This document shows positions 1 to 53,635 of a stretch of DNA of 64,000 bases, piece after piece; positions within the stretch are counted from its first letter, which is position 1; each line of letters starts with the position of its first letter. Source of the DNA: Fidelibacterota bacterium (GTDB lineage: Bacteria > Fidelibacterota > UBA2242); contig JBAZPZ010000003.1 in the NCBI GenBank assembly GCA_041645495.1, positions 849-64,848 of the forward strand, in the 5' to 3' direction. The notes beneath the pieces were generated by a model that was given only the letters and a program-made list of their open reading frames with translations, had not been told where the DNA came from and ran no database searches. Made by a program: the position numbers and the translations under genes.

Positions 1-503
1 TTCATGTCGGGTAGTCTGGAACATGCTTCAATGATTTTTCCTTCATTGGCTTTGAATTCTTCACGCCATTTTTCATAATAAACATCTAAAGCCCCGTCTT
101 TTGTATGCAGCGCATTTCTCACCTGCGAATCATAGATTAGAACCGGATGTTTGATTTTAATCCAAAGAAACTTTGTCGTAAGCGACAGAAGGTTTTTATT
201 TCCATACTTGACGGATATTCTTCTTTCAATTTCACGTATTTCTTTAACGGGGTCATCCTTAAAGTCGTCTGGTTTTAGAGGATCGATGATGTCCAAAACC
301 GGTTCGTATCGAGCAAGCGCTCTCTTTTCGTCGTATATTGAAGGTAAATTTCTCGCTACTCTATAAAAGCCACCGGCATTCTTTAATGCTTTTAGTTTTT
401 CACTCCTATTTCCATTAGATAATGCCTCACAGTACCCCATGTCATACATGAGCCACTGATTTAGATAAAGTAGCGAGCAATATTCAAAAGTTTTGGTTGC
501 CAC
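1..503 (-). CDS. Partial paralog (C-terminus runs off the window start) of the 207-aa hypothetical protein at 6753-7376; probable GTG start at 503
   Basis: Positions 3-510 align at about 93% nucleotide identity with 6877-7380, with no indels inside the coding part. The reading frame stays open on the minus strand. The ATG of copy B corresponds to GTG here. Not in the ORF track because there is no in-window stop. Confidence 0.5.
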   Translation of the reverse strand, partial: MATKTFEYCSLLYLNQWLMYDMGYCEALSNGNRSEKLKALKNAGGFYRVARNLPSIYDEKRALARYEPVLDIIDPLKPDDFKDDPVKEIREIERRISVKYGNKNLLSLTTKFLWIKIKHPVLIYDSQVRNALHTKDGALDVYYEKWREEFKANEGKIIEACSRLPDM

Positions 504-540
504 ATCTTGCTTCAATTTTTTCTCCTCCGAAATCCCTTAT

Positions 541-630
541 CATAATGCTATGAATTTATTCCCAAACAATTCTTTTATCAAGACACTTTTAACCTTCAGA
601 AGGTTAGAAACCTTCTGAAGGTTTTAACAC
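541..630. repeat. R element copy 1: ~90-bp intergenic repeat with two tandem 15-bp palindromes, AACCTTCAGAAGGTT at 591-605 and AACCTTCTGAAGGTT at 609-623
   Basis: Direct sequence match to 9790-9880 (about 85-90% identity). The two palindromes are mutual reverse complements, forming a perfect 15-bp stem with a 3-nt loop. The element lies in the divergent region between the 207-aa paralog (start 503, minus) and thrA (start 713, plus). Confidence 0.6.
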
Positions 631-712
631 TCTTGGCAGGTTCGGGAAAATATCGTATTTTTCGTCGGATCGATTTTATTGAGCATTTGACACACAGACT
701 GAAAGTTAGAGT

Positions 713-3181
713 ATGAAAGTTCTAAAATTCGGCGGAACCTCAGTAGGCAAGCCGGAAAATCTGAAAACCATTTTTCAGATCGTCGCAAAAGAAATCCAAA
801 GCGGAACCGACGTCATCACGGTCTTTTCGGCGCTCAGCAAAGTCACGGATCAGTTGACGGAAATGAGCCGCTTAGCCGCGAAAAGAGACGTGGCCTATAA
901 AACAGTCTATGACGACCTGCGCAACCGCCATTTCCAGTTCATCGAGAAAGTGATGCCGCCGGTTGAACGGGAATCCGTGATCGCGGAAATCGAATCCATT
1001 CTCTCCGAACTGCAGGACATCGTGCATGGCGTTTACTTGTTGAAGGAATTATCCGGGCAGTCGCTCGACCTGATCCTGAGTTTCGGCGAACGCCTGTCTT
1101 GTACGATCATCGCCGCCTATGGCAAGTCCGCCGGCCATGCGACTCATTACGCGGATGCCCGGCAAATTTTCACGACCAATGACCACTTCGGGGCGGCGCG
1201 GATCATTTCGAATATTACAACTCCCAAAATACAGGCCCTTTTTCAAAATTATACCGGAGTACCTGTCGTAACCGGATTTATTGCGGCGACCGAAGACGGT
1301 GTCACGACGACTCTGGGACGAGGCGGCTCCGACCTGACCGCTTCCCTGATCGGCGCGGCCTTAGATGCCGAAGAAATTCAGATCTGGACGGACGTCAACG
1401 GTTTCATGTCCGCCGATCCGCACAAGGTCAAAGAAGCCTTTTCTCTGCGTGAACTCAGTTACGAAGAAGCAGTTGAACTCAGTCACTTCGGCGCCAAAGT
1501 GCTTTTCCCACCGACTATTCAGCCGGTGATAGATAAAAAGATTCCAGTCCGGATTATGAACACTTTCAATCCGGATTTTCCCGGCACGGTCATCAAGAAA
1601 AATCCTTCTGCCAACGGCGGTTTTATTAAAGGAATCACCTCGATCAGGCATATTTCTCTGCTGACTGTTCAGGGCAGTGGCATGATCGGCGTCAGCGGCA
1701 TTTCGTCCCGCCTGTTCGGCGCGCTCGCCAAAGTCAACGTGAATGTGATCCTGATTTCCCAGGCATCCTCGGAACATTCCATCTGCGTGGCCATTTTGCA
1801 TGATTCCGTCCATAAGGCAAAAACGGCAATCGAAGAGGAATTCTCGATGGAGATCAAAGTCCGCATGGTCGACCCGGTCATCGTGGAAAATGACCTGATC
1901 ATCATCGCCGTGGTCGGTGAACGGATGCGTAAAACCACCGGACTGGCCGGGCGACTCTTCAGTGCTCTCGGCGAAAAAACCATCAATGTCGTGGCTATTG
2001 CACAGGGCTCTTCGGAATTGAACATCTCGATTGTAATCGATCAAAAGGACGAGGATCAGGCACTCAACGCCATCCACAATGCCTTCTTCGCAAAAAAAGT
2101 AAAAGTGAACCTGTTCCTTTTCGGCGTCGGACTGATCGGTTCAGCTCTTATCGAACAGATTAGATCGAATTATATCAATTTGCTGAATAAATATGCCCTA
2201 GATTTGAAAGTCGTCGGGCTGGCCAACAGCCGGAAAATGCTGATCGACAAAGACGGCATCGATTTGAATGACTGGCGAAAATCCCTGAACGATTCCCCGG
2301 TCAAAACCGATATGCAAGTGTTGCTAGCTGAGATAAAGAAACTGAATCTGGATAACAATGTTTTAGTAGATTGTACTGCCAGCGCCGAAATCGTGACGCA
2401 TTATGAACAAGTTTTGACCGGGCGGACCTCCATCGTCACCGCGAATAAAATCGGCAACACCGGTTCGTATTCCCAATATGTCAAATTCCGGGACCTCGCG
2501 AAAAGCAAACACGTCCATTTCCTCTATGAAACCAACGCCGGGGCGGCTCTGCCGATCATCAGCACTCTGCGGGACATGATCAATTCCGGCGACCGGATTA
2601 TCCGGATCGAAGCGATCCTGTCCGGCACAATCAGTTATATACTCAATAATTTCAAGCCGGGGAAAAAGTTCAGCGACATCGTCCGCGAAGCCAAAGATAA
2701 AGGTTTTACCGAACCCGACCCGCGCGATGACCTCAGTGGTCTCGATTTCGCCCGCAAAGTTCTGATCCTCGCCCGGGAGATCGGGAATCCCACTGAACTA
2801 GCCGATATTCAGATCGAACCGATCTTGCCGGAGAATTGCTACAAAGCCCCTTCGATCGAGGCGTTCTTCGAGGAACTTGAAAAATCCAATGCTTACTTCG
2901 ATAAATTGCTACAACAGGCGCACGCCGAAGGCAAAGTCCTACGCTATATCGCGATTTACGAAAACGAAAAAACGTCGATGAAATTAGAAAAAGTGAATTC
3001 CGCCCATCCCTTCTATTCGCTGAGCGGCAGTGACAATATCATTGCCTTTACGACTAATCGTTACGCCGAAAATCCGCTGGTTATCAAAGGAGCGGGCGCC
3101 GGCGCGGAAGTGACGGCCGCGGGCGTCATGGCGGATATTTTCAAGATTGCCAACGCCGTAATGAAGAGTAAGAGTTTCTGA
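713..3181 (+). CDS. thrA: Bifunctional aspartokinase / homoserine dehydrogenase
   Basis: 822 aa. N-terminal aspartokinase (MKVLKFGGTSVG), two ACT regions, and a C-terminal homoserine dehydrogenase domain. thrB follows. Confidence 0.9.
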   Translation: MKVLKFGGTSVGKPENLKTIFQIVAKEIQSGTDVITVFSALSKVTDQLTEMSRLAAKRDVAYKTVYDDLRNRHFQFIEKVMPPVERESVIAEIESILSELQDIVHGVYLLKELSGQSLDLILSFGERLSCTIIAAYGKSAGHATHYADARQIFTTNDHFGAARIISNITTPKIQALFQNYTGVPVVTGFIAATEDGVTTTLGRGGSDLTASLIGAALDAEEIQIWTDVNGFMSADPHKVKEAFSLRELSYEEAVELSHFGAKVLFPPTIQPVIDKKIPVRIMNTFNPDFPGTVIKKNPSANGGFIKGITSIRHISLLTVQGSGMIGVSGISSRLFGALAKVNVNVILISQASSEHSICVAILHDSVHKAKTAIEEEFSMEIKVRMVDPVIVENDLIIIAVVGERMRKTTGLAGRLFSALGEKTINVVAIAQGSSELNISIVIDQKDEDQALNAIHNAFFAKKVKVNLFLFGVGLIGSALIEQIRSNYINLLNKYALDLKVVGLANSRKMLIDKDGIDLNDWRKSLNDSPVKTDMQVLLAEIKKLNLDNNVLVDCTASAEIVTHYEQVLTGRTSIVTANKIGNTGSYSQYVKFRDLAKSKHVHFLYETNAGAALPIISTLRDMINSGDRIIRIEAILSGTISYILNNFKPGKKFSDIVREAKDKGFTEPDPRDDLSGLDFARKVLILAREIGNPTELADIQIEPILPENCYKAPSIEAFFEELEKSNAYFDKLLQQAHAEGKVLRYIAIYENEKTSMKLEKVNSAHPFYSLSGSDNIIAFTTNRYAENPLVIKGAGAGAEVTAAGVMADIFKIANAVMKSKSF

Positions 3182-4119
3182 TGAAGTCCATAACGGTTTT
3201 CGCTCCCGCCACCGTGGCCAATGTCGCCTGCGGTTTCGACGTCTTCGGATTCGCCGTACATGAACCGGGCGACGTCGCTAAGGTCACTCTGCGGGAAACT
3301 CCCGGCGTCGAAATTACCCGCATTACCGGCGACAGCAGACAGTTGCCGAAATCCGCCGAGAAGAATACGGCCGGTTTCGCGGCCATCCGTTATCTCGAAA
3401 CCATCGACTCCAAACAGGGCGTCGAAATCGAATTGCAGAAGAAAATGCCGCTGAATAGCGGCCTGGGTTCGAGCGCTGCCAGCGCGGTTGCCGTCCTTTT
3501 TGCGATCAATGCGCTTTTCGAAAACCGGCTCACGAAACATGAATTGCTCAGTATCGCGATACAGTCGGAGAAATTAGCCTGCGGCGCCGCGCACGCCGAC
3601 AACGTCGCTCCGGCGCTTTTCGGCGGTTTTGTACTTATCCGTGAAAACGATCCGCCGGACATCGTGGAATTGCCGGTTCCGGATAACCTTTACTGTACGA
3701 TCATTCACCCGGAAGTCGAAATTCGCACCGCGGATGCCCGCAATATCCTCACTCCGCAGATTCCCCTGAAGGATGCAGTCAGGCAATGGGCGAACACGGC
3801 GGGATTGGTCGCCGGACTTTTCCGGAAAGACTTTGCGCTCATCGGCCGCTCTTTACACGATCACGTCATCGAACCACAACGGGCTATGCTTATTCCCTAT
3901 TTCTATGAATTGAAACAGGCGGCTTTAGCCAGCGGCGCCCTCGGTTGCAGTATATCCGGTTCGGGACCTTCCGTCTTCGCGCTATCGCAAACGCAAGTCG
4001 TTGCCGCGAAAATCGCCGAGGCCATGCAAACCGTCCTGAATAATCACGGGATCGGCAATCAGATTTACGTCTCTCCCATCAGCACCAAAGGACCGGAAAT
4101 CATCGCTCAAGAGGAATAA
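3181..4119 (+). CDS. thrB: Homoserine kinase
   Basis: 312 aa GHMP kinase with the PLNSGLGSSAASAVA motif. Start overlaps the thrA stop (ATGA). Confidence 0.9.
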   Translation: MKSITVFAPATVANVACGFDVFGFAVHEPGDVAKVTLRETPGVEITRITGDSRQLPKSAEKNTAGFAAIRYLETIDSKQGVEIELQKKMPLNSGLGSSAASAVAVLFAINALFENRLTKHELLSIAIQSEKLACGAAHADNVAPALFGGFVLIRENDPPDIVELPVPDNLYCTIIHPEVEIRTADARNILTPQIPLKDAVRQWANTAGLVAGLFRKDFALIGRSLHDHVIEPQRAMLIPYFYELKQAALASGALGCSISGSGPSVFALSQTQVVAAKIAEAMQTVLNNHGIGNQIYVSPISTKGPEIIAQEE

Positions 4120-4123
4120 AACT

Positions 4124-5440
4124 TTGCGATATTACAGCACTGCCGACCGCACCCATAAAGTTCCCCTGAGAGAGGCCGTTCTGAACGGCATGCCCGCCGA
4201 CGGTGGTCTTTACATGCCCGAATCTCTGCCGGTAATGCCGGATAAATTCTTCCGCGATCTGCCGGAGATGACTTTTCAGTCCTTGTCTTTCGAAGTGGCC
4301 AAAACCCTGATCGGCAATGACGTCCCAGCCGACATCCTGCATAAAATTATAGACGACGCCATCAATTTCGAAACCACGCTGGTAAACATTACGGAAAAGA
4401 TCAAGACCCTCGAACTTTTCCACGGGCCGACCCTCGCTTTTAAAGACGTCGGCGCGCGGTTCATGTCGCGCCTGATGGCCTATTTCGTCCGGGGCAGTGA
4501 TCGTAAACTCAACATTCTGGTCGCGACCTCCGGCGACACCGGCAGCGCCGTCGCCAATGGTTTTTTCCAGATCCCCGGCATCAACGTCATCGTCCTTTAC
4601 CCGGCCGGGAAGATCAGCCTAATCCAGGAAAAGCAAATCGCGACGATGGGCGGGAACGTCATTGCTTTGAAAGTAAAAGGCACGTTCGACGATTGCCAGC
4701 GTTTGGTGAAAGCCGCCTTAGTCGATCCGGATGTTCAAAAAGCCCTGACGGTCAGTTCCGCCAATTCGATCAACATTGCGCGGCTGATTCCGCAAACCTT
4801 TTACTATTTCAATGCCTTCCGGCAGATCCAAGATTTTCACGACAAAAAGATTGCGGTCTGCGTTCCCAGCGGCAACTTCGGTAATCTTACCGCCGGCCTG
4901 ATCGCTAAAAAGATGGGACTGCCGGTTGACCGCTTCATCGCCGCTACCAACATCAACCATATCGTCCCGGATTACCTATCAACCGGGATTTTCCACCCGC
5001 AGGCTTCCATTCAGACCATTTCCAACGCCATGGACGTCGGGAATCCCAGCAATTTTGCCCGCATGCTCGCCCTCTATGACAATTCGTTAGACAACATGCG
5101 CCGGGACATCGACGGTGAATATTTTACCGACGACGAGACCCGCGCCGCGATTGCCGCAGTTTATCGTGAGATTGGCTACATTCTCGATCCGCACGGCGCC
5201 GTCGGTTACCTGGGAATTAAAAACTATCTCGACCGAAATCCGTCAACAGATACCGGTATTTTCCTTGAAACAGCGCACCCGGCGAAGTTCCGGGATGTGG
5301 TGGAACCGATCATCGGAACGACTATCGCGATCCCAGACCGGCTTGCAAAATTCCTTGAACGAAAAGTGTTATCAATAAATATATCCAGCGAGTATGAGGA
5401 ATTCAAAGCCTTCCTGTTGGAAAACAAGATTCTTTATTGA
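4124..5440 (+). CDS. thrC: Threonine synthase
   Basis: 438 aa, PLP enzyme with the FHGPTLAFKDVG lysine motif. Third gene of the thrABC operon. Confidence 0.9.
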   Translation: MRYYSTADRTHKVPLREAVLNGMPADGGLYMPESLPVMPDKFFRDLPEMTFQSLSFEVAKTLIGNDVPADILHKIIDDAINFETTLVNITEKIKTLELFHGPTLAFKDVGARFMSRLMAYFVRGSDRKLNILVATSGDTGSAVANGFFQIPGINVIVLYPAGKISLIQEKQIATMGGNVIALKVKGTFDDCQRLVKAALVDPDVQKALTVSSANSINIARLIPQTFYYFNAFRQIQDFHDKKIAVCVPSGNFGNLTAGLIAKKMGLPVDRFIAATNINHIVPDYLSTGIFHPQASIQTISNAMDVGNPSNFARMLALYDNSLDNMRRDIDGEYFTDDETRAAIAAVYREIGYILDPHGAVGYLGIKNYLDRNPSTDTGIFLETAHPAKFRDVVEPIIGTTIAIPDRLAKFLERKVLSINISSEYEEFKAFLLENKILY

Positions 5441-5462
5441 CCAAACCATCTTCCCGCGTTGA

Positions 5463-5687
5463 CTTACTGAATTGTTATGTGGTGCCGAACCGGAAGTCAT
5501 GACGCTCGCCAAATCTCATGGCAGCGGTGTCCAACTCGGCGCGGAAATCGTCGACAAATGCCGCGCCCAAAACCTGCTGATCAACTGCACGCACCAAACC
5601 GTTCTGCGCCTCATGCCCGCCATCAATGTCACCAAAGAGCAGATCGACCGCGCAGTCGCGATCATCGGCAAGGCGTTGGAAGAATAA
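5463..5687 (+). pseudogene. 3-prime remnant (about 74 codons) of a class-III aminotransferase gene (ArgD / acetylornithine aminotransferase-like)
   Basis: The translation (QLGAEIVDKCRAQNLLINCTHQTVLRLMPAINVTKEQIDRAVAIIGKALEE) matches the extreme C-terminus of ArgD/GabT-type aminotransferases. The frame is closed by TGA at 5460-5462, only 20 nt after the thrC stop, so about 330 N-terminal codons are missing. Confidence 0.6.
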
Positions 5688-5734
5688 AAGTCAACAGAGT
5701 TTCAAAATAGATGAGGATTCTTTTATATTGGATT

Positions 5735-6817
5735 TTACTTTATCTTCGTCAATAGCCAATCTGTCAATCCAAATTCAACTATCATTTTTGCCAGCCGTTT
5801 TGGTAAAATAAGTTCAATGTCTTCGTATTTGGTGTTTTTAAATTCAGCAAGAGTTTTGTCAGGGCTATGAACTACGAAATATAGTTTTCTAAATATACCA
5901 TGTGAAAACTCTTGAGCATATTTTTCAAATTCATCCACAGTTGCTCTGGATTTGACTTGTACCTGATACTTATCCTCTGTTATTGGCTCAACCAATTCCA
6001 TATCGACATATTTCATTACTTCCCCTAAAAGACTGACTCGACGCCAACCAGCATTTCGAAATATCAAATCAACCAAAGTCTCAAAATCTTTCCAGTGTAA
6101 TTGCTCCAATCCCATCGCAACTTCCGTTATCAGTTTTGCTTTATTTCGAGAGATCGATTTGAAAGCATTGCTTGGTTTATCATTTATAAGTCTTCTCAAC
6201 GTTTCAACTTCTGCTATTTCGCAAATTGTCCCTCGAAATCCCTGTACTTTCGCAATATTTCCAGGAATTTGACTAATCAATAAAGGCTTCCCTTTTATAT
6301 CATGATTATGCCATTCCCCCGAAAGCAAACGGTACACTGATATTTCATCCTTAAAGATACCTTTTTTACCAAGACGACACCACCAAAGCTGACATTTATG
6401 GAAAGTTATCCAAATATCGTTTGATGCGGATTGAGTTATTTTTTTTAGGGCATTTATATCCATTGTCGCGACCCCGTCAGTTTTATACTCATGTCTATAT
6501 TTTATTTTGAGTGCGTCCCAATCTCCTCGATTGATTTCTTCGAGCGTCCAATTATTCCACCCAATTCGCGCTTTATTTTCTCTAATGCTAGATGTTTCCC
6601 ATTCTCCTCCTCTACCCAGTTTGATGTAGTAGGCTTTCGTAAATTTTTCCGTTTTCATTTCAGTACCGTCCTTTAAAGATAAGCCTTCTTTTGTCTTTAT
6701 CGCTCGTTTTATATCAGTGGCGTAGCCTTGCAGAATCTGCCGGATGTTATTGTTAAGCACTGTTACCTTTGTTCCAAAGATAAATATCAAAAACTCTTTC
6801 ATGAAACCATGTTTCAT
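5735..6817 (-). CDS. Two-domain protein: unknown N-terminal domain (about 210 aa) fused to a C-terminal Mrr-type PD-(D/E)xK nuclease domain
   Basis: 360 aa. The C-terminal segment WKDFETLVDLIFRNAGW...YVDMELVEP...KYQVQVKS fits the Mrr_cat pattern (FE-LV-L, a D..E block, then a QVK lysine). The N-terminal region (AYYIKLGRGGEWE..ARIGW) was not recognised. The start overlaps the stop of the upstream 207-aa gene by 65 nt, so the two are co-transcribed; the alternative start MKEFLIF at 6802 still overlaps. Confidence 0.55.
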   Translation of the reverse strand: MKHGFMKEFLIFIFGTKVTVLNNNIRQILQGYATDIKRAIKTKEGLSLKDGTEMKTEKFTKAYYIKLGRGGEWETSSIRENKARIGWNNWTLEEINRGDWDALKIKYRHEYKTDGVATMDINALKKITQSASNDIWITFHKCQLWWCRLGKKGIFKDEISVYRLLSGEWHNHDIKGKPLLISQIPGNIAKVQGFRGTICEIAEVETLRRLINDKPSNAFKSISRNKAKLITEVAMGLEQLHWKDFETLVDLIFRNAGWRRVSLLGEVMKYVDMELVEPITEDKYQVQVKSRATVDEFEKYAQEFSHGIFRKLYFVVHSPDKTLAEFKNTKYEDIELILPKRLAKMIVEFGLTDWLLTKIK

Positions 6818-7376
6818 TTGATATCTCCCGAATATATTCTTCTGTTCCGACCTCCTGATTCACCGCATACTTATTCATCTCGGGTAGTCTGGAACATACT
6901 TCAATGATTTTTCCTTCATTGGCTTTGAATTCTTCACGCCATTTTTCATAATAAGCATCTAAAGCCCCGTCTTTTGTATGCAGCGCACTTCTCACCTGTG
7001 AATCATAGATTAGAATCGGATGCTTGATTTTAATCCAAAGAAACTTTGTCGTAAGCGACAGAAGGTTTTTATTTCCATACTTGGCGGATATACTTCTTTC
7101 AATTTCACGTATTTCTTTAACGGGGTCATCCTTAAAGTTGTCTGGTTTTAGAGGGTCGATAATGTCCAAAACCGGTGCGTATCTATCAAGCCCTTTCTTT
7201 TCGTCGTATTCCGAAGGTAAATTTCTCGCTACTCTATAAAAGCCACCGGCATTTTTTAATGCAGTCAGTTTTTCACTCTTGTTGCCATTAGATAATGCCT
7301 GACAGTAACCCATGTCATAGATGAGCCACTGATTTAGATAATAGAGCGAGCAATATTCAAAAGTTTTGATTGCCAT
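6753..7376 (-). CDS. Hypothetical protein (207 aa), first gene of the two-gene module with the Mrr-like nuclease
   Basis: Clean ORF with a Shine-Dalgarno (AAGGAGAGGT) 0-3 nt before the ATG, immediately downstream of the attC1 R-prime core. No transmembrane segment and no recognisable family. A paralog sits at 1-503. Confidence 0.6.
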   Translation of the reverse strand: MAIKTFEYCSLYYLNQWLIYDMGYCQALSNGNKSEKLTALKNAGGFYRVARNLPSEYDEKKGLDRYAPVLDIIDPLKPDNFKDDPVKEIREIERSISAKYGNKNLLSLTTKFLWIKIKHPILIYDSQVRSALHTKDGALDAYYEKWREEFKANEGKIIEVCSRLPEMNKYAVNQEVGTEEYIREISNETWFHERVFDIYLWNKGNSA

Positions 7377-7389
7377 ACCTCTCCTTGAT

Positions 7390-7452
7390 ACCTAACGCAA
7401 CGCCTCTCGGGGCGCGAGGAACGAGCGCTCCTTTTGCAGGCGCTTGTTAGGT
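7390..7452 (-). other. Integron-type attC recombination site (attC1, 63 bp)
   Basis: Read in the cassette (minus) direction: R-double-prime ACCTAAC (fits RYYYAAC and contains the TAA stop of ORF172), L-double-prime AAGCGCC, an imperfect inner palindrome, L-prime GGCGTTGC, and R-prime GTTAGGT (fits GTTRRRY). It is followed by SD + ATG of the next ORF. The complement of R-double-prime equals the TTAGGT found at the 5-prime edge of its own cassette. Confidence 0.6.
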
Positions 7453-7965
7453 GATTTTAAGTTGATAAATCTTGCATCCATACTGAGTGCGGCGAAAAAA
7501 AGCATAAATGGGAGGCAATGCCTTAGGTGTGACAAAGCCACCCTGTGAGAGGTTGATGTTATTGATTTGACTGTGGCGTCCGAATAGGCAAAGGAATGAC
7601 TGTGAATTAGTATACTTTTTCTGGAAAGCGGCTAACTTTTTATAATCAAGATTCACATCAAGCGTATTGATCCGCTTTCTAGGCCATTTAACTTCTAATG
7701 CGAAGTGGTATCGTTCCTTCTTTGCCACGAAATCAATCCTTTTATGGCCAACACTTCCCTCGTTTGGAAGAAAGCCCTTACAAGAAACCTCGCATTTAAC
7801 ATCGTATTTGCGAATCAAGAGTACGCGAAGAATAGACTCATACAATTGGTATTCGGTGAAAGCTATATTCGCGTCGCAAGCAGCAAGATAGCTGATATGC
7901 CCTGCCAAGGCCCGTTGAATGCGAAATAGTGATTCGTATGGTTCGTCGAGTTCACGCTTCCTCAT
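7447..7965 (-). CDS. Hypothetical protein (172 aa), possible PD-(D/E)xK-fold nuclease, alone in its cassette
   Basis: ORF with SD (AAGGAGATTAGATA) + ATG directly after the GTTAGGT core of attC2. The stop codon is embedded in the R-double-prime core of attC1. The segment RIDFVAKKERYHFALEVKW resembles a D..E-x-K nuclease motif. This is a weak inference. Confidence 0.5.
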   Translation of the reverse strand: MRKRELDEPYESLFRIQRALAGHISYLAACDANIAFTEYQLYESILRVLLIRKYDVKCEVSCKGFLPNEGSVGHKRIDFVAKKERYHFALEVKWPRKRINTLDVNLDYKKLAAFQKKYTNSQSFLCLFGRHSQINNINLSQGGFVTPKALPPIYAFFRRTQYGCKIYQLKIT

Positions 7966-7983
7966 TATCTAATCTCCTTAATT

Positions 7984-8041
7984 ACCTAACGCTGCGGCTC
8001 AGCGGCGGCGGAACGCCGTCCGCTGTAGCCGATTGTTGGGG
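7984..8041 (-). other. Integron-type attC recombination site (attC2, 58 bp)
   Basis: Cassette direction: R-double-prime CCCCAAC (8041-8035), inner imperfect palindrome AATCGGCTACAGCGG...CCGCCGCTGAGCCGCAGC, and R-prime GTTAGGT (7990-7984). It lies 9 nt after the HNH gene stop and 18 nt before the ORF172 ATG. Confidence 0.55.
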
Positions 8042-8049
8042 CTTCTCTT

Positions 8050-8772
8050 TCAAAGATTTCGCTCGATGATTTTCTTCACGTAGGCGGGCATTTCCTGCTG
8101 AAGAGCTTCCGTCTTCTTTTTCAATTTGTCATAAACTTCAACTTCAGCACCAGTCCACATGATGTCTAGTCGACGGGCTGAGCGCATGGCAATGTGTGCA
8201 TAATCCTCAGGGTAAGCCCAGTAGCATGAACGACAGATGTTGGAGTCTTTCTGCTCAAGCCAATTTGCACAATGCTCGCAAGACCAGGACTTCGCGCGAT
8301 TTGCCGAACCGCAGAGCAACATGAAGTCTTCTGGCTTCTGCTTTCCCTCGCCCATATCCCCCGCAACCTCAAAAGGGATACGATGGTCAATCTGCAGCTC
8401 ACGTTCGTCGAATGGTTCAAGATAAACAGCGCACCGCGAACCGTGCTTTTCGATTAAGGCTTGTTTCAGTTCCTTTGTGAAAGCCGTGCGCCCGATCAGT
8501 TTTCCGAATCGGGACTTACTTGGATCACCGAAGCGATATGCGGCGATCTTGCGCCCATCTGCGCCTTCCACCCTGTACATCTCAATTGGGATGCCGTTCT
8601 CTTTGACGTCGCGGACGGCACGTGGGGGATGATTGTAGCCGTATTTGTCCTTCAACTCCTGTGTGGTTATGAATCCATGCTTGAGAATGTGGTCAATAAC
8701 AGTCCGAGGACGCTTTGCCGTGACCTTCTTGCACAGCCGTATGAATTCTTTGGGAAGTTGCGGTTTCGTCAT
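8050..8772 (-). CDS. HNH-family restriction endonuclease (type II R-M, R subunit)
   Basis: 240 aa. HNH core LQIDHRIPFEVAGD ... LLCGSANRAKSWSCEHC with flanking Cys/His zinc ligands. The start overlaps the stop of the upstream methyltransferase (ATGA). Confidence 0.75.
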   Translation of the reverse strand: MTKPQLPKEFIRLCKKVTAKRPRTVIDHILKHGFITTQELKDKYGYNHPPRAVRDVKENGIPIEMYRVEGADGRKIAAYRFGDPSKSRFGKLIGRTAFTKELKQALIEKHGSRCAVYLEPFDERELQIDHRIPFEVAGDMGEGKQKPEDFMLLCGSANRAKSWSCEHCANWLEQKDSNICRSCYWAYPEDYAHIAMRSARRLDIMWTGAEVEVYDKLKKKTEALQQEMPAYVKKIIERNL

Positions 8773-9683
8773 GATCTCGTCTCAAAAAGGCACATTTGTT
8801 CGCTTTGCGGTAAGTGGTAGACAGTTTTTGATTCGATGAGTTCATCGGCAAGTGCTGGGGACAGGTAAAGAGATTCAACAGTCGCATCGTCCCTGCCCAG
8901 AAGGGTTGCTTGCGTAGATCGTCCGGCGTTCAACTCCATGTGCGAAAGGTTCAAGTGTTCGGGCAGGCGTACGCCATGAACTTTATTGCCGGTGCGCCCA
9001 TCGTAACTGACAATATATCGGATATGCCTGGCGTTGAGGTGCTCAAGAACTTCAACGAACTCACAAAACTGCACGCTAGCAAGATAACGAGTATCTCTAT
9101 TTCCACAGACGCCTTGATAAGGCGGATCCATATAAACCAAGTCGCCATCGCCTGCTCTCAGCACGGCATCACGGTAATTTGTAGAAGAAAATGATGTCTT
9201 GCCTTTCAGTAAATAGGACGCGCCACAAACCTGTTCGTGCATGGTCGCAGGCGTCGCTCCTCGCCGTCTGTTATCGGGGCTTTGGTTGAACTCGCCATTC
9301 GCGTTATACCGTACTGATGCTTTTACGCATCTGGCTAGAAGGTAGAGGAAGTAGTCTGGCCTTCCGGTAAGATTGAATTCATCCCGTATTTTGCGGTAAT
9401 AGGACTTAGGGTCGGCAAGTTGTTCTTTCCAAAGCGATTCGTACTCCTTGGCCAGTTTATCCGGTGTGTTGACAATAGCCCTCCAAAGGTCCACCAACGG
9501 CTTGTTCAGGTCGTTGATGTGAAATCGCTTGGCACGCCTGTGCGCAGCGGCGGCCAGCGAAATGGCGGCCGACCCAGCAAAAGGCTCATGCAGAGTCTCA
9601 ACACTAGCGGGGAAACATCGCAAGATGTCCCCGGCCAAGTTCCGCTTGCTTCCTTGGTATGGTATAGGATGAGGAACGTTCAT
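8769..9683 (-). CDS. N6-adenine DNA methyltransferase, Dam-like (D12 class)
   Basis: 304 aa. N-terminal PYQGSKR (AdoMet motif I of Dam-type methyltransferases) and catalytic VYMDPPYQG (DPPY motif IV). Paired with the HNH endonuclease. Confidence 0.8.
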   Translation of the reverse strand: MNVPHPIPYQGSKRNLAGDILRCFPASVETLHEPFAGSAAISLAAAAHRRAKRFHINDLNKPLVDLWRAIVNTPDKLAKEYESLWKEQLADPKSYYRKIRDEFNLTGRPDYFLYLLARCVKASVRYNANGEFNQSPDNRRRGATPATMHEQVCGASYLLKGKTSFSSTNYRDAVLRAGDGDLVYMDPPYQGVCGNRDTRYLASVQFCEFVEVLEHLNARHIRYIVSYDGRTGNKVHGVRLPEHLNLSHMELNAGRSTQATLLGRDDATVESLYLSPALADELIESKTVYHLPQSEQMCLFETRS

Positions 9684-9789
9684 ATCAGCACTCTATTCAA
9701 AAACCTGTCTTCTTTTCATGTCCTTCTCGTGCCCCAACATATGTTTATACCGCACACCTGACTCCGTTTTTTTCTCTTTTGAAAGCCCT

Positions 9790-9880
9790 CATCATGACGC
9801 CATCAATTTAGACTTAAACAATTCTTTTGTCAAGATACTCTCAACCTTCAGAAGGTTGAAAACCTTCTGAAGGTTTTACC
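9790..9880. repeat. R element copy 2: same ~90-bp repeat; palindromes at 9843-9857 and 9861-9875
   Basis: Matches 541-630. Lies 2-12 nt after the selB stop (9887) and about 170 nt upstream of the methyltransferase start (9683). Confidence 0.6.
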
Positions 9881-9886
9881 ATTCCT

Positions 9887-11815
9887 TCACTCTTTCAACT
9901 TCCTCACATCTTCTTCCCGCTTCGTGAGTCCGGTTCGGTCGTAATAATTCAGCAAAGGAATCACCCATTTGCGGGAAGTCTGGAGCAGTTCTTTCAGTTC
10001 AGCGACGGTCGCCTCGCCTTTTTTATTGAGATAATCAGCAATCAGTTTGCGCCCCTTTTCGATCGTGTCGGAATGGAACGCGAGATTCCGTTCGGGGATG
10101 ACGATTTTTCCGGCGTCGGTTAAGTAGGCGAACAGCGGCTCGGCTTCGTCTTCCGGCAGGTTTAGTTTTTCCCGGATTTCGGTCAGATCGGGCGGCGCGA
10201 ATCCGCCGGCGATCAGCGCCGACTCGATTTGCAGGATCGATTCCGATTGTTTTCGAGAAAGAACCGGCGAGAAGTCGCCCAGCCGCCATTTATCGCCGGA
10301 AACCACTATTTTATTTTCGTTTTTAAGTTCATTCGTCAGCCAATCCGCCATCCCGAAGCTTCGGGAGAGTTTTACCTCCGCGAGAAGACTCGCTTTCGAT
10401 TGACCGGAGAGAATCGGATTCTTCCGATGGAACTGCAACAGAATTTCGATCAAACGTTCCTTCATTGCCGGGATTTCGGAGACCGAAACGTAACCGGTTT
10501 TGATCAAAACGAGCCTGTTACGGTCGGCAAGTTCCCGCAGAAGCTTCACTGCCGAACTTTCGGAGATCGAAAGTCTCTGCGCAACATCGAGAGGTGAGAA
10601 AAGTGTCCCCGGATGGAGGAAAAAGAGGTTTTCGGCGCAGAAAAGCAGGTCATCGGCGATGAGTTTTCCGATCCGATCCGCTTTTGCGGACTCTTTTTTC
10701 CGGAGCGGTTCGGGGAAAACTTCGAGAACCGTCGCGCCGCCGATCGTCGCCGCCGGAGAATAAGTTCGCAGGATCAGTCGGTCGTGGAATCCGGCCGAAA
10801 TTTCTTCGTCGAAGAGGATTTGCGCGACGCACGACTCGCCCGGCCAGAGTTCGTCTTTGCCGATCGGGCGGATTTTGGCGATGAATTCGCCGGTTCCGAG
10901 GTGAACACGGACGACGGAATTGTATTTCAGCGGCGATGCGGTCGGCAGAAGTCCGATGTGGCAGGTTACCAGCCGCGTCGGGCGGAAATATCCGGGCGTC
11001 GCGAGGAAATAGCCGCGCTTCAGATCGTCCTTATCGACGTTCTGTAGGTTGATTGCGGCGCGATGACCGACGCCAATCCTGTCCGTCTGCTTTCCATGCG
11101 ACTGAATGCCGCGGACTTTCGTCCGAATCTTCAGCGGCGCGATCTCCACTTCATCGCCGATGCGCAATTCTCCCGAAATAATCGAACCTGTGACGACCGT
11201 TCCATAACCTTTGACGATAAAAGCGCGGTCGATCGGCAGACGAAACAGGTCGGTTGTGTTTTCCCGCTCGAACTGTGCCGCTTTTTGTAAGATCGTTTCC
11301 TTTAGTTCGGGAATTCCGGCGCCTGTGACGGCAGAAACGCAAAGAATCGGTTCGTTTTCGAGAAATGTTCCGTAGACAAATTGCCGGACATCTTCCAGAA
11401 TCATCTCCAGCCATACAGAACTGACGAGATCGATCTTGTTGACGACGATCAGTCCCGAGCGGATGCCGAGAAGTTTGAGGATTTCCAGATGTTCGCGGGT
11501 CTGCGGCATGATTCCGTCATCCGCGGCGACGACGAGAAGCGCCAGATCGACGGTATTTGCGCCGGTGACCATGTTCTTGATGAACTTTTCATGCCCGGGA
11601 ACGTCGATGAAGGCGATATTTTCATTCAGAAACGCAAAGCCGATGTCGATGGTCATGCCGCGACGGCGTTCTTCTTCAAGCCGGTCGGGATCGACACCGG
11701 TCAGCGCCTTCAAAAGCGACGATTTGCCGTGATCGATGTGTCCGGCGGTTCCAAAAATGACCGGTCTTTGTCCGCTGACAGGTTCATCGGACAGTTTTTG
11801 GTTTTCTGTTGGCAT
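9887..11815 (-). CDS. selB: Selenocysteine-specific translation elongation factor
   Basis: 642 aa. GTPase motifs (GTAGHIDHGKS, DVPGHEKF, NKID) followed by a long winged-helix C-terminal extension typical of SelB. Adjacent to selA. Confidence 0.85.
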   Translation of the reverse strand: MPTENQKLSDEPVSGQRPVIFGTAGHIDHGKSSLLKALTGVDPDRLEEERRRGMTIDIGFAFLNENIAFIDVPGHEKFIKNMVTGANTVDLALLVVAADDGIMPQTREHLEILKLLGIRSGLIVVNKIDLVSSVWLEMILEDVRQFVYGTFLENEPILCVSAVTGAGIPELKETILQKAAQFERENTTDLFRLPIDRAFIVKGYGTVVTGSIISGELRIGDEVEIAPLKIRTKVRGIQSHGKQTDRIGVGHRAAINLQNVDKDDLKRGYFLATPGYFRPTRLVTCHIGLLPTASPLKYNSVVRVHLGTGEFIAKIRPIGKDELWPGESCVAQILFDEEISAGFHDRLILRTYSPAATIGGATVLEVFPEPLRKKESAKADRIGKLIADDLLFCAENLFFLHPGTLFSPLDVAQRLSISESSAVKLLRELADRNRLVLIKTGYVSVSEIPAMKERLIEILLQFHRKNPILSGQSKASLLAEVKLSRSFGMADWLTNELKNENKIVVSGDKWRLGDFSPVLSRKQSESILQIESALIAGGFAPPDLTEIREKLNLPEDEAEPLFAYLTDAGKIVIPERNLAFHSDTIEKGRKLIADYLNKKGEATVAELKELLQTSRKWVIPLLNYYDRTGLTKREEDVRKLKE

Positions 11816-11826
11816 GAAATGGGAAT

Positions 11827-52593: not shown

Positions 52594-53635
52594 GGGTTAA
52601 TGGAACATTTTAGCTGCTAAATATTTTTTAATTCGCTGATTTATACCAAGTTACCGGAAAAATATTTTTAAGGAAAAATAATATGGCAAAAAAAATGTCC
52701 GTTTTGTGGTCACCAAAGAGTAAAAAAATGCGGTAAAAATAGCACTGGAAAACAACGATATTACTGTTTGGATTGCCATAAATATTTTCAACGTCATAAA
52801 TCCAAAAAGACCATCCCGACCAGTCGGGATCAAATCTGGCACAAATATGTATGGGAACGACAGACCTTATCAGATCTGACATGTGAGTATAATCGCAGTA
52901 ATAAATGGCTCAGGAAGCAGATATTCGGAATAAAAGTAAGACGCCCTAAGATCAACCCTTGCACAGTCGTAGTTGAAGCAGATAAGACCTTTTTCAACAG
53001 GCGTGAAGGTCTCTGCCTATTTCACGCTCCCGCTTTAAAAAGAACCATTGCTTATGCCTTCATTGAAACCGAAACAGCCTCCATTTACAGGCGTTTGAGA
53101 GAAACGATTCAAGGTTTTGGATTTACTCTGTTGGCAGCTGTCGTCGACGGCAGAAAGGGTATCAAGGAAGTGTTTGATGATGTTCCTGTTCAGATGTGTC
53201 AATTTCACCAATTGATGATACTTAGACGGTATTTGACGATGAATCCGCGTTTAGAAGCCGGGAGGGAATTAAGAGAAATAAGCAGGGATTTGTGTAAAGT
53301 TGAGCGATTAGAATTTGAACAACGTTTCATAAAGTGGAATGAAAAATGGGATGATTTTTTGAAAGAAAAAACCGTTATCGAAGATGTTAAGTGGCATTAT
53401 ACTCATAAACGTTTGCGATCAGCCAGACGTAGTCTAATGACCAATTTACCTTACCTTTTTTCGTACCAGGATTATCCGGAACTTTCCATTCCTAACACAA
53501 TAAATTATGCCGAAAGTTTTAATGCCCGACTTAAAGAATTGCTCAGAGTCCACCGCGGTTTTAGTAGACCGTTAAAACGTAAGATTATAAGTGAAATTTT
53601 GGCGATTTAGCAGCTAAAAAGTTCCATTAACCCCC
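52594..53635 (+). mobile_element. Insertion sequence (about 1.04 kb), IS1/IS1595-like, with imperfect terminal inverted repeats
   Basis: Left inverted repeat GGGTTAATGGAACATTTTAGCTGCTAAAT (52594-52622). Right end 53605-53635 is its reverse complement (GGGGGTTAATGGAACTTTTTAGCTGCTAAAT), about 27 of 29 matching. It encloses a single transposase gene. No clear target-site duplication was seen. Confidence 0.75.
52683..53610 (+). pseudogene. IS1/IS1595-family transposase, interrupted by a +1 frameshift in an A8 homopolymer (52688-52695)
   Basis: ATG at 52683 opens MAKK, then the frame is lost. With A7 the product would read MAKKCPFCGHQRVKKCGKNSTGKQRYYCLDCHKYF (N-terminal zinc ribbon) continuous with the 280-aa ORF at 52768-53610. 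The C-terminal block NTINYAESFNARLKELLRVHRGFSRPLKRKI resembles the IS1 InsB / IS1595 terminal motif. The ORF ends inside the right inverted repeat. Confidence 0.65.

What the first reader, a model, noticed from the sequence alone, without database searches (positions are those of the whole stretch)
5735..7376. Candidate undescribed two-gene defence or toxin-immunity module: 207-aa unknown protein plus a 360-aa protein with an unknown N-terminal domain fused to an Mrr-type nuclease
The two ORFs overlap by 65 nt, so they are probably translationally coupled.

The downstream 360-aa protein has a C-terminal segment that fits the Mrr catalytic PD-(D/E)xK pattern (FETLVDLIF ... VDMELVEP ... QVQVKS). 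Its roughly 210-aa N-terminal domain (AYYIKLGRGGEWE...ARIGW) matches nothing I recognise: not Mrr_N, not Shedu DUF4263 as far as I can recall, not a McrB-like domain. The upstream 207-aa partner has no recognisable domain or TM segment.

The pair sits at the distal end of an integron-like cassette array, next to an R-M cassette. That is a typical position for defence cargo. A second diverged copy of the 207-aa gene exists at the window start. Diversified small partners with an orphan copy is the pattern of an immunity, antitoxin or specificity component.
Basis: partly seen in the sequence, partly recalled or inferred. Interest (0 to 1): 0.8.

Follow-up and report, generated by a model that had tools for sequence, protein, structure and literature searches.

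The report
Two unrelated defence cassettes, not a pair
The two neighbouring genes are not a coupled toxin-immunity or two-part system: each is a stand-alone, horizontally moving gene, one a predicted restriction enzyme that cuts chemically modified DNA and the other an unannotated protein that looks like a DNA-base-removing enzyme, and they merely sit side by side in a small island of mobile defence genes.

Summary
Both ORFs are real, but the pairing is not. More than 100 homologues put the nuclease start at ATG 6658 (307 aa). The "65-nt overlap" therefore comes from taking the longest ORF; the genes are 94 nt apart.

None of 80 nuclease-centred genome loci holds a 207-family gene, and none of 80 207-centred metagenome loci holds the nuclease. 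The closest relatives (73-80% identity) also lack the partner. Neither family has any recurrent neighbour.

The nuclease's "unknown" N-terminal domain is predicted to be a YTH/EVE (PUA-like) modified-base reader, fused to an Mrr-type PD-(D/E)xK domain. This is the known architecture of type IV, modification-dependent restriction enzymes. Most family members match the PADLOC candidate PDC-S02.

The 207-aa protein belongs to a widespread family with no Pfam, NCBIfam, PADLOC or PHROG match. Its confident all-alpha model weakly resembles HhH DNA glycosylases. Its conserved K111/D125/D197/W201 have the same spacing as the catalytic residues of the recently described integron-borne defence glycosylase Dag1. 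No Dag sequence was available, so this is not confirmed.

Both families occur elsewhere as single integron cassettes. Here they lie in a low-GC, degenerate cassette array with a type II R-M pair.

Verdict: ordinary defence cargo, new members of known kinds.

The parts
5735..6658 (-). Nuclease gene, corrected CDS (307 aa, ATG 6658, stop 5735-5737). Predicted single-chain type IV (modification-dependent) restriction endonuclease.
   Evidence: More than 1,100 homologues, nearly all about 305-310 aa, start at this Met. AlphaFold2 model has pLDDT 91.4.
6164..6658 (-). N-terminal domain (residues about 1-165): predicted PUA-like (YTH/EVE) modified-base reader. It carries invariant or near-invariant W34, W47, W83, W92, W93 and W116.
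5738..6106 (-). C-terminal Mrr-type PD-(D/E)xK nuclease domain (residues 185-307). Putative catalytic residues are E193 (6080-6082), D219 (6002-6004), Q234 (5957-5959) and K236 (5951-5953).
6659..6817 (-). Spurious 5' extension of the longest ORF (53 codons). This is the source of the apparent 65-nt overlap. 6659-6752 is the real 94-nt spacer.
   Evidence: The extension is absent from or unconserved in homologues. The ATGs at 6817 and 6802 lie inside conserved coding sequence of the 207-aa gene, and the same sequence occurs in copy A, which has no nuclease downstream.
6690..6705 (-). Boundary between two separately acquired units (the 207 unit and the nuclease unit).
   Evidence: Homology with the paralogous copy A stops at ...AAGACG|TTAGAT. 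Copy A has a GTTRRRY-type core there; the main copy has the degenerate GAGCGAT. Homology with the upstream region of the 78%-identical nuclease P0002 (L168/L170) begins about 35-45 nt before the ATG. This spacer does not fold like a canonical attC.
6753..7376 (-). 207-aa gene: stand-alone all-alpha protein of an unannotated family, with a predicted HhH-glycosylase-like fold. Conserved K111 (7044-7046), D125 (7002-7004), D197 (6786-6788) and W201 (6774-6776).
7390..7452 (-). attC-like recombination site (ACCTAAC...GTTAGGT) between the 172-aa and 207-aa genes. The stop codon of the 172-aa gene lies inside its 5' core.
   Evidence: Sequence. Found by the RYYYAAC...GTTRRRY plus pairing filter. DNA fold -13.3 kcal/mol, z -1.7. 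Homology with the 80%-identical 207 locus L172 starts at this GTTA(A/G)GT core.
7447..7965 (-). 172-aa ORF of unknown function in its own cassette. It contains a D...ExK-like motif (RIDFV...ALEVKW).
   Evidence: no significant family or PDB match. Found only in the sister contigs L001 and L002 among the loci examined.
7983..8046 (-). Second attC-like site (…CCCCAAC…GCGTTAGGTA) between the restriction enzyme gene and the 172-aa gene.
   Evidence: DNA fold -19.9 kcal/mol, z -3.9. It shares GCGTTAGGTA with the first site.
8050..9683 (-). Type II R-M pair: D12-class (Dam-like) N6-adenine methyltransferase (8769-9683) overlapping by 4 nt a wHTH/HNH restriction endonuclease (8050-8772).
   Evidence: Pfam MethyltransfD12 1.4e-35 and TIGR00571 dam 3.8e-34. 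PADLOC MTase_II 1.7e-85 and REase_II 3.3e-60.
9805..9875 (-). Perfect 15-bp hairpin (9843-9875) after selB, followed by the only strong sigma-70-like promoter facing the array (TTGACA-17-TAAATT, 9833-9805).
   Evidence: A promoter function is inferred, not shown.
1..632 (-). Paralogous copy A of the 207-aa gene (1-503, running off the window), preceded by a second copy of the hairpin plus promoter-like block (501-632).
   Evidence: Copy A is full-length in L002, and its downstream DNA is unrelated to the nuclease. dN/dS 0.36.

Best explanation
The locus is a small, low-GC island between selB and thrC. It is built like a degenerate integron cassette array with no integrase. It carries at least four independent cargo units: a type II R-M pair, a 172-aa unknown, the 207-aa gene and the nuclease gene.

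(1) The 207-aa gene and the nuclease gene are neighbours by accident of insertion. They are not a functional pair. This is shown comparatively.

(2) The 307-aa protein is a single-chain type IV restriction endonuclease. An N-terminal YTH/EVE-like domain would flip out and read a modified base in invading DNA. A long helix tethers it to a C-terminal Mrr-type PD-(D/E)xK domain (E193, D219, Q234-x-K236) that would cut nearby. The architecture is predicted with high confidence. Modification dependence, and the identity of the modification, are inferred.

(3) The 207-aa protein is a stand-alone enzyme with a helix-hairpin-helix DNA-glycosylase-like fold. It most likely excises a modified base from phage DNA, in the manner of the integron-borne Dag glycosylases. 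K111 and D197 would be the catalytic pair and W201 would stack on the base. The fold similarity is weak, and the residue match is a resemblance to published numbering, not a tested homology.

The whole array may be read from the single promoter-like site after selB. This is inferred.

My sub-confidences are 0.9 for (1), about 0.75 for the architecture in (2), about 0.55 for modification-dependent restriction in (2), and about 0.45 for (3).
For: Independence of the two genes:
- 0 of 80 nuclease-centred loci from GTDB species genomes contain a 207-family ORF. 68 of these loci have at least 700 nt upstream and 69 have at least 1 kb downstream.
- 0 of 80 207-centred metagenome loci contain the nuclease. 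60 of these have at least 700 nt upstream and 50 have at least 1 kb downstream.
- The positive controls L001 and L002 (sister contigs of the window) score for both families.
- The closest relatives also lack the partner. These are nucleases at 78, 76 and 73% identity and 207 homologues at 80%.
- Neither family has a recurrent neighbour by sequence clustering or by Pfam.
- The nuclease occurs alone on 116 plasmids, 101 of them from Klebsiella.
- The paralogous copy A has no nuclease downstream.
- Homology breakpoints fall between the two genes.

Mobility:
- GC is 37-38% across both genes against 50-55% in the flanks.
- attC-like sites lie at 7390-7452 and 7983-8046.
- IntI-type integrases sit next to 207 homologues in L151, L117 and L118, and next to a nuclease homologue in L007. 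In L007 the nuclease sits in a long attC array, with an attC-like site immediately upstream (7842-7945) and attC-repeat-like sequence immediately after its stop; it appears to be a single cassette.

Nuclease:
- The model has pLDDT 91.4.
- Mrr_cat matches 93 of 105 family members.
- PADLOC PDC-S02 models match 57, 17 and 8 of 105 members, with a best E of 5e-13.
- EVE- and YTH-like PD(D/E)XK fusions are described as predicted type IV enzymes (PMC7641849).

207-aa protein:
- The model has pLDDT 94.8.
- K111, D125, D197 and W201 are invariant or at least 90% conserved. Their spacings, K+14=D and D+4=W, are those of Dag1 K118/D132/D184/W188 (bioRxiv 10.1101/2025.10.29.685425).
Against: - The two genes are adjacent, co-oriented and 94 nt apart, with no predicted terminator between them. 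No canonical attC folds in the spacer. Co-transcription and a local functional interplay therefore cannot be excluded.
- For the nuclease, the window protein itself is only borderline for Mrr_cat (21.0 bits, exactly at the cut-off of 21) and for PDC-S02 (E=1.2e-3).
- A Dam-type methyltransferase is encoded two genes away.
- One PDC-S02 representative tested by others did not protect E. coli B against T4, T5 or T7 (bioRxiv 10.1101/2024.09.26.614923).
- No Dag sequence was available for comparison.
- The K111-D197 distance (86 residues) differs from Dag1 K118-D184 (66 residues).
Confidence: 0.65

Rival explanations
1. A lineage-specific two-gene system. In this organism only, the glycosylase-like protein and the modified-DNA nuclease were brought together and now cooperate. 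For example, the first makes abasic sites or marks modified DNA and the second cleaves. They would be co-transcribed as one fused cassette.
For: The genes are on the same strand, 94 nt apart, with no terminator-like site and no foldable attC between them. The R'-type core at the junction is degenerate in this copy (GAGCGAT against GTTAGAT in copy A), which would lock the two genes together. Both proteins plausibly act on modified DNA. The arrangement is kept in two further sister contigs.
Against: There is no co-occurrence in 160 independent loci or in the closest relatives. Each protein is highly conserved and evidently functional alone, on plasmids and as a single cassette in integrons. The sister contigs are the same species, so they add no independent support.
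Confidence: 0.08
2. A toxin-immunity or toxin-antitoxin pair. The 207-aa protein neutralises the nuclease, and the extra copy at the window start is an orphan immunity gene.
For: The layout is a small upstream gene followed by a nuclease. A second copy of the small gene exists without the nuclease.
Against: Nuclease homologues stand alone in 80 of 80 genome loci and on 116 plasmids, with no conserved small neighbour. The 207 family is highly conserved (50-90% identity across phyla; 19 invariant columns that include plausible catalytic residues), which is unlike fast-diversifying immunity proteins. The paralogues are 90% identical rather than diversified. The supposed overlap is an artefact.
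Confidence: 0.03
3. The 207-aa protein uses the HhH-like fold for something other than base excision in defence. It could be a DNA-base-modifying transferase (as in the PUGT / aGPT-Pplase enzymes), a nucleotide or queuosine-type salvage enzyme (as in DUF2419), or a non-catalytic DNA-binding protein.
Against: The protein stands alone, with no accompanying modification-pathway genes in 80 loci. It has integron and mobile-element contexts like the Dag proteins. Its conserved Lys/Asp/Asp/Trp set has Dag1-like spacing.
Confidence: 0.3
4. The nuclease is not modification-dependent. The PUA-like domain would bind RNA (as eukaryotic YTH and some EVE proteins do) or an unmodified DNA structure, and the enzyme would act as an RNA-guided or abortive-infection effector.
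For: YTH domains are chiefly RNA m6A readers (hits). Some type IV-like systems are predicted to target RNA (PMC11090510, listed). The tested PDC-S02 member did not restrict T4, T5 or T7.
Against: All characterised PUA-like plus nuclease single-chain fusions that appear among the structural hits are modified-DNA endonucleases: VcaM4I, AspBHI, MspJI and McrB (PMC6765204, PMC7897488). Mrr-type domains are DNA nucleases. Lack of protection against three coliphages is expected if the cognate modification is absent.
Confidence: 0.15

Closest known systems
PADLOC phage-defence candidate PDC-S02 (models PDLC04806, PDLC04816, PDLC04815)
   Same: It is a single-gene candidate of about 324 profile positions. 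57, 17 and 8 of 105 members of the nuclease family match its models, with a best E of 5e-13. The match covers the N-terminal reader domain and the linker.
   Different: The window protein itself scores only E=1.2e-3 (16 bits). PDC-S02 is an unvalidated candidate with no described mechanism. The one representative tested elsewhere gave no protection against T4, T5 or T7.
PUA-superfamily modification-dependent restriction endonucleases (MspJI/AspBHI SRA-PD-(D/E)xK; VcaM4I/TspA15I EVE-HNH; the EVE- and YTH-like-PD(D/E)XK fusions catalogued by Bell, Wolf and Koonin 2020)
   Different: There is no detectable sequence similarity to Pfam EVE, YTH or SRA. The nuclease is Mrr_cat type with a QxK variant, not the MspJI-type or HNH. 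Specificity is unknown. The gene lies two genes from a Dam-like methyltransferase, whereas PUA-type MDRE genes are reported to be rarely near methyltransferase genes (PMC6765204).
E. coli Mrr
   Same: It has the same catalytic domain family (Mrr_cat) at the C-terminus and is a type IV enzyme.
   Different: Mrr uses an N-terminal winged-helix Mrr_N domain, which is absent here (no Pfam hit). A canonical Mrr_N plus Mrr_cat gene is a separate neighbour in L171.
Dag defence-associated DNA glycosylases (Dag1/VP1840, Dag2 and others; Getz et al., bioRxiv 10.1101/2025.10.29.685425)
   Same: These are stand-alone proteins with an HhH-superfamily fold predicted only by structure and carried in integron cassettes or mobile contexts (Dag1 catalytic residues lie at 118-188). 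Dag1 has a catalytic Lys, two Asp and a stacking Trp at K118/D132/D184/W188. The 207 family has conserved K111/D125/D197/W201 with identical K-to-D and D-to-W spacings.
Integron cassette arrays lacking an integrase (CALIN-type clusters) and sedentary chromosomal integrons as defence gene stores
   Same: The locus has co-oriented, mostly single-gene units separated by attC-like sites with GTTRRRY cores. One promoter-like site lies at the head. Cargo is low in GC. Relatives of both genes lie in true integrons next to IntI (bioRxiv 10.1101/2024.07.02.601686 listed).
   Different: Only two convincing attC-like sites were found. None folds between the 207-aa gene and the nuclease gene or after the nuclease gene. 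There is no integrase in 64 kb. No dedicated attC model (IntegronFinder) was available to run.

Membership tests
   0 of 80 and 0 of 80 loci; the closest relatives also lack the partner; the positive controls are detected.
   The homologue-supported start at 6658 leaves a 94-nt gap. The 5' extension is not conserved.
Type IV (modification-dependent) restriction endonuclease of the PUA-reader + nuclease class | A nuclease domain with intact catalytic residues. | tested here: met
Type IV (modification-dependent) restriction endonuclease of the PUA-reader + nuclease class | A PUA-superfamily (SRA/EVE/YTH/ASCH) domain fused in the same chain. | tested here: met
Type IV (modification-dependent) restriction endonuclease of the PUA-reader + nuclease class | No cognate methyltransferase is required; the enzyme stands alone. 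| tested here: met
   There is no conserved neighbour of any kind in 80 loci, and the gene is alone on plasmids. In this window a Dam-like methyltransferase is nearby, but it belongs to a separate R-M unit.
Type IV (modification-dependent) restriction endonuclease of the PUA-reader + nuclease class | Cleavage depends on a modified base. | not testable with these tools
   This needs biochemistry or phage assays.
PADLOC PDC-S02 | A significant match to the PDC-S02 profile HMMs. | tested here: inconclusive
   Most of the family matches (57, 17 and 8 of 105; best E 5e-13), but the window protein scores only E=1.2e-3 over profile positions 5-213 of 324.
Shedu (DUF4263) / McrBC / Mrr_N-type Mrr | Presence of DUF4263, a McrB GTPase or the Mrr_N winged helix. 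| tested here: not met
HhH(-GPD) DNA glycosylase superfamily / Dag defence glycosylases | An HhH-type all-alpha glycosylase fold. | tested here: inconclusive
HhH(-GPD) DNA glycosylase superfamily / Dag defence glycosylases | A conserved catalytic Lys/Asp pair and a base-stacking aromatic residue. | tested here: inconclusive
   K111 and D197 are invariant; D125 and W201 are at least 90% conserved. Their spacing matches Dag1 K118/D132/D184/W188. Positions in the pocket could not be checked because no coordinates or Dag sequences were available.
HhH(-GPD) DNA glycosylase superfamily / Dag defence glycosylases | Sequence or structural homology to a named Dag family (Dag1-17). | not testable with these tools
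   The paper's supplements hold locus tags and accession lists only. Five accessions of 207-family members were not found in the (truncated) table.
HhH(-GPD) DNA glycosylase superfamily / Dag defence glycosylases | Integron or mobile-element context; a single-gene unit. | tested here: met
   IntI lies next to homologues in L117, L118 and L151. attC-like sites lie within 350 nt in 19 of 80 loci by a crude filter. There is no conserved partner.
Integron cassette array | attC sites (RYYYAAC...GTTRRRY imperfect hairpins) delimiting co-oriented ORFs. | tested here: met
   Met for two sites, 7390-7452 and 7983-8046. Not met for the 207-nuclease spacer or downstream of the nuclease.
Integron cassette array | An IntI integrase and attI at the head of the array. 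| tested here: not met
   tblastn with an IntI-type integrase finds nothing in the 64-kb window.

The most novel reading that the evidence does not exclude
The 207-aa protein may found a widespread enzyme family that is not one of the described Dag families. The family has 714 clusters at 50% identity across many bacterial phyla and no Pfam, NCBIfam, PADLOC or PHROG model. It would be a new HhH-like, single-gene antiphage effector with its own modified-base specificity or chemistry. In this lineage it has become locked next to a modified-DNA endonuclease through decay of the intervening recombination site.
Probability: 0.25. Interest if true: 0.5.

Novelty: new member of a known kind. Interest (0 to 1): 0.3.

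Why it matters
As a claimed new two-gene system it does not stand, which saves cloning the pair as a unit.

What remains is useful but incremental.
- The analysis gives a corrected gene model and a structural assignment (YTH/EVE-like reader plus Mrr nuclease) for a large family. That family has more than 1,100 sequence clusters, includes about 100 Klebsiella plasmids, and is annotated everywhere as hypothetical or only as the PADLOC candidate PDC-S02.
- It flags a second large unannotated family as a probable HhH-type defence glycosylase.

Both genes are cheap to test singly against phages with modified DNA. If active, they would add specificities to the toolbox of modification-dependent enzymes. 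They would also support the view that integron cassettes store anti-phage genes well outside Vibrio.

Tried and rejected
- Translational coupling through a 65-nt overlap is rejected. Homologue N-termini fix the start at 6658.
- A canonical attC between the 207-aa stop and the nuclease start was considered, because the spacer has a GCTTAAC...GTTAGAT-like pattern. Neither copy folds better than shuffled sequence. I kept only the weaker statement that homology breakpoints fall there.
- Sequence-level annotation of the 207-aa protein gave nothing. I searched Pfam, NCBIfam, PADLOC and PHROGs, both with the single sequence and with all 103 aligned members, and ran a profile search of PDB sequences. 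The PDB hits were chance coiled-coil matches to haemagglutinin.
- Foldseek of the 207 model against viral models gave nothing. The afdb50 library was unavailable.
- No phage in the INPHARED collection encodes either protein.
- N-terminally extended 207-family proteins were examined as fusion clues. The dnaE-finger and PriA fragments look like chimeric or read-through ORFs. Only DUF6508+207 looks like a real fusion, and it is uninformative.
- A 271-276-aa ORF downstream of three distant nuclease homologues carries an HhH-like motif. It could have been an analogous partner, but hhalign against the 207 family was negative.
- Looking up the copy-A protein P0121 on its contig failed because there was no exact record. 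The sister contig L002 was used instead.
- An Rfam scan of 1-12000 gave no match, and the window holds no tRNA gene.
- Searching the Dag paper's supplements for sequences or accessions of this family found nothing usable.
Full report
**What is in the sequence**

The minus strand between thrC (4124-5440, plus strand) and selB (9887-11815, minus strand) carries five co-oriented ORFs:
- a D12/Dam-class N6-adenine methyltransferase (8769-9683);
- a wHTH/HNH type II restriction enzyme that overlaps it by 4 nt (8050-8772);
- a 172-aa unknown (7447-7965);
- the 207-aa ORF (6753-7376);
- the long ORF at 5735-6817.

GC drops to 37-38% across the last two genes, against 50-55% in the flanking housekeeping genes. 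A C-terminal fragment of an aminotransferase gene (5472-5687, plus strand) abuts the 3' end of the island.

**Gene model**

The 360-aa reading is the longest possible ORF, not the gene. Of more than 1,100 homologues, almost all are 305-310 aa. They begin at the methionine that corresponds to ATG 6658 (MKTEKFTKAYYIKLG...). The few longer ones have unrelated extensions.

The ATGs at 6817 and 6802 lie inside conserved coding sequence of the 207-aa gene. The identical sequence is present at the end of the paralogous copy, which has no nuclease behind it. The two genes are therefore separated by 94 nt (6659-6752). The proposed translational coupling has no basis.

**Are they a module?**

I fetched 80 loci centred on nuclease homologues from one-genome-per-species bacterial and archaeal assemblies. 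I also fetched 80 loci centred on 207-family homologues from metagenome contigs. I searched all six-frame ORFs with profile HMMs of both families.
- Every central gene was recovered.
- No nuclease locus held a 207-family ORF. 68 of these loci had at least 700 nt upstream and 69 had at least 1 kb downstream.
- No 207 locus held the nuclease. 60 had at least 700 nt upstream and 50 had at least 1 kb downstream.
- The sister contigs of the window (L001, L002) served as positive controls and scored for both families.

The closest relatives behave the same way.
- The 78%-identical nuclease follows a GNAT acetyltransferase.
- The 76%-identical one follows an unrelated 243-aa ORF and precedes a canonical Mrr.
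- The 73%-identical one sits between an RND pump and dnaE.
- The two 80%-identical 207 homologues have no nuclease nearby.

Clustering of all neighbours, and Pfam scans of same-strand neighbours within 250 nt, found no recurrent partner for either family. Nuclease homologues are carried on 116 plasmids in PLSDB, 101 of them from Klebsiella. They are annotated as hypothetical, and in the three plasmid regions inspected they sit among unrelated genes, including (in the Novosphingobium plasmid) HEPN, DUF4238 and restriction genes.

**Unit boundaries**

Two attC-like sites with GTTAGGT cores flank the 172-aa gene, at 7390-7452 and 7983-8046. Both fold, and the second folds much better than shuffled sequence.

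Homology between the window and the 80%-identical 207 locus L172 begins exactly at the GTTA(A/G)GT core in front of the start codon. It ends at the stop codon.

The window's second copy of the gene lies at 1-503 and is full-length in L002. It is homologous from the start codon to about 50 nt past the stop. There copy A reads AAGACG|TTAGAT, a GTTRRRY-type core, while the main copy reads the degenerate GAGCGAT. After that point the sequences are unrelated.

Homology between the window and the upstream region of the 78%-identical nuclease begins only about 35-45 nt before ATG 6658. A boundary between two separately acquired units therefore lies at about 6690-6705, between the genes. The spacer does not fold like a canonical attC, however.

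No IntI-type integrase is encoded in the window. Relatives of both genes do lie in true integrons.
- IntI sits next to 207 homologues in L117, L118 and L151.
- IntI sits next to a nuclease homologue in L007, a Pyrinomonadaceae chromosome. There the nuclease sits within a long array of 104-110-nt attC repeats: one lies just upstream (7842-7945) and attC-repeat-like sequence follows its stop, so it appears to be a single cassette.

The only strong promoter-like site facing the array is TTGACA-17-TAAATT at 9833-9805, just after a perfect 15-bp hairpin downstream of selB.

**The nuclease**

Pfam Mrr_cat matches 93 of 105 family members and reaches the cut-off exactly for the window protein. E193, D219 and K236 are invariant and Q234 is at least 90% conserved, which gives the Mrr-like D...QxK motif. 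The N-terminal domain has six invariant or near-invariant tryptophans. That fits an aromatic base pocket, but I could not inspect coordinates.

PADLOC's unvalidated single-gene candidate PDC-S02 matches most family members (best E 5e-13) but matches the window protein only weakly. The literature describes EVE-PD(D/E)XK and YTH-like-PD(D/E)XK fusions as predicted type IV restriction enzymes (PMC7641849). It has also characterised PUA-type modification-dependent enzymes (PMC6765204 and PMC7897488).

I therefore read the protein as a single-chain modification-dependent endonuclease. Which modification it reads is unknown. The Dam-type methyltransferase two genes away argues against indiscriminate m6A recognition. 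One PDC-S02 representative tested by others did not restrict T4, T5 or T7.

**The 207-aa protein**

The family is large. There are 185 close sequence clusters and 714 clusters at 50% identity with E at or below 1e-3. Almost all members are stand-alone proteins of 200-220 aa, spread across many bacterial phyla. The family has no Pfam, NCBIfam, PADLOC or PHROG model and no PDB sequence relative.

The segment LSLTTKFLWLKIKxPILIYDS forms a helix, a loop and a helix (H106-117, H126-132).

[quoted passage not shown] They defend against phages with 7-deazaguanine DNA. In Dag1, K118, D184 and W188 are essential and D132 contributes (10.1101/2025.10.29.685425).

In the 207 family, K111 and D197 are invariant and D125 and W201 are at least 90% conserved. 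The Lys-to-Asp (+14) and Asp-to-Trp (+4) spacings are the same as in Dag1. This is a suggestive resemblance, not a test. I had no Dag sequence or model, and the supplementary tables hold only locus tags and accessions.

The two paralogues in this genome are both intact and differ mostly at synonymous sites (dN/dS 0.36). Such strong conservation, with catalytic-looking invariant residues, is the opposite of what is expected for a diversifying immunity protein.

**Verdict**

It is partly wrong: the overlap, the "unknown" domain and the "diverged orphan" do not hold.

The interpretation as a new two-gene defence or toxin-immunity module is not supported. The best reading is two independent single-gene defence cargos that happen to be neighbours in a decayed cassette array.
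- One is a PUA-reader/Mrr type IV restriction enzyme, a known kind that overlaps PDC-S02.
- The other is a probable HhH-type, Dag-like glycosylase of an unannotated family.

A purely local cooperation between the two genes cannot be excluded, but nothing comparative supports it.

Noticed in passing
window 501-632 and 9753-9884: A 130-nt block is present twice at 80% identity. It consists of a perfect 15-bp hairpin (AACCTTCAGAAGGTT-ttc-AACCTTCTGAAGGTT) followed by TTGACA-17-TAAATT. One copy lies between selB and the methyltransferase gene; the other lies between thrA and the second copy of the 207-aa gene. Homology ends exactly at the GTG/ATG of the 207 gene copy. There are only these two copies in 64 kb (4 palindrome hits against 0.07 expected). 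Its nature is unresolved: it could be a mobile promoter, an attI-like head of an array, or the scar of a rearrangement that placed thrABC between two cassette sites.
   Followed up: partly
window 1-503 (minus strand; full gene in L002 7733-8356): A second, intact paralogue of the 207-aa gene (90% aa identity, dN/dS 0.36) has a GTG or upstream TTG start. It is followed by unrelated DNA, not by a nuclease gene.
   Followed up: yes
window 7447-7965 (minus strand): The 172-aa ORF forms its own cassette between two attC-like sites. It contains a D...ExK-like motif (RIDFV...FALEVKW) that suggests a small PD-(D/E)xK nuclease. It has no significant Pfam, NCBIfam, PADLOC or PDB-sequence match. Among the fetched loci it has homologues only in the sister contigs.
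   Followed up: partly
window 5472-5687 (plus strand): A 71-aa ORF looks like the C-terminal fragment of a class III (acetylornithine-type) aminotransferase. It directly abuts the 3' end of the nuclease gene and may be a remnant of a gene truncated when the island was inserted. The identification is by eye only.
   Followed up: no
window 52768-53610 (plus strand): A 280-aa ORF lies in a second low-GC patch (43% GC at 52-54 kb). By eye it resembles an IS-type transposase. Not tested.
   Followed up: no
L007 4000-16600 (Pyrinomonadaceae chromosome OY970389.1): A long sedentary chromosomal integron. An IntI-type integrase lies at 2295-3179, and at least 13 attC repeats of 104-110 nt follow. The nuclease homologue (62% identity) appears to be one single-gene cassette among them.
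   Followed up: partly
L052, L055, L056 (e.g. L056 6086-6907): In three loci of a distant nuclease subfamily (about 35% identity), the nuclease gene is followed about 80 nt later by a 271-276-aa ORF. That ORF carries an HhH-like motif (GFALACDFLKEIGYEGFGKPDVHI). It has no Pfam match, and hhalign against the 207 family was negative. It may be another glycosylase-like neighbour, or coincidence.
   Followed up: partly
L042 8534-9124 and two other nuclease loci: Nmad2 (nucleotide-modification-associated domain 2) proteins are same-strand neighbours of nuclease homologues in 3 of 80 loci (best E 9e-61).
   Followed up: no
proteins P0186, P0251, P0266, P0246: Some 207-family proteins have N-terminal additions. 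Fragments of the DnaE finger (P0186) and of the PriA 3'-binding domain (P0251) look like chimeric or read-through ORFs. DUF6508+207 (P0266) and an unknown 195-aa N-terminal region (P0246) look like genuine fusions.
   Followed up: partly
L165 (Klebsiella pneumoniae plasmid pTMTA63631, NZ_AP019666.1 140881-141798): A 33%-identical full-length nuclease homologue is carried on about 100 Klebsiella IncF-type plasmids and is annotated as a hypothetical protein. This may be relevant to phage or plasmid exclusion in clinical strains.
   Followed up: partly
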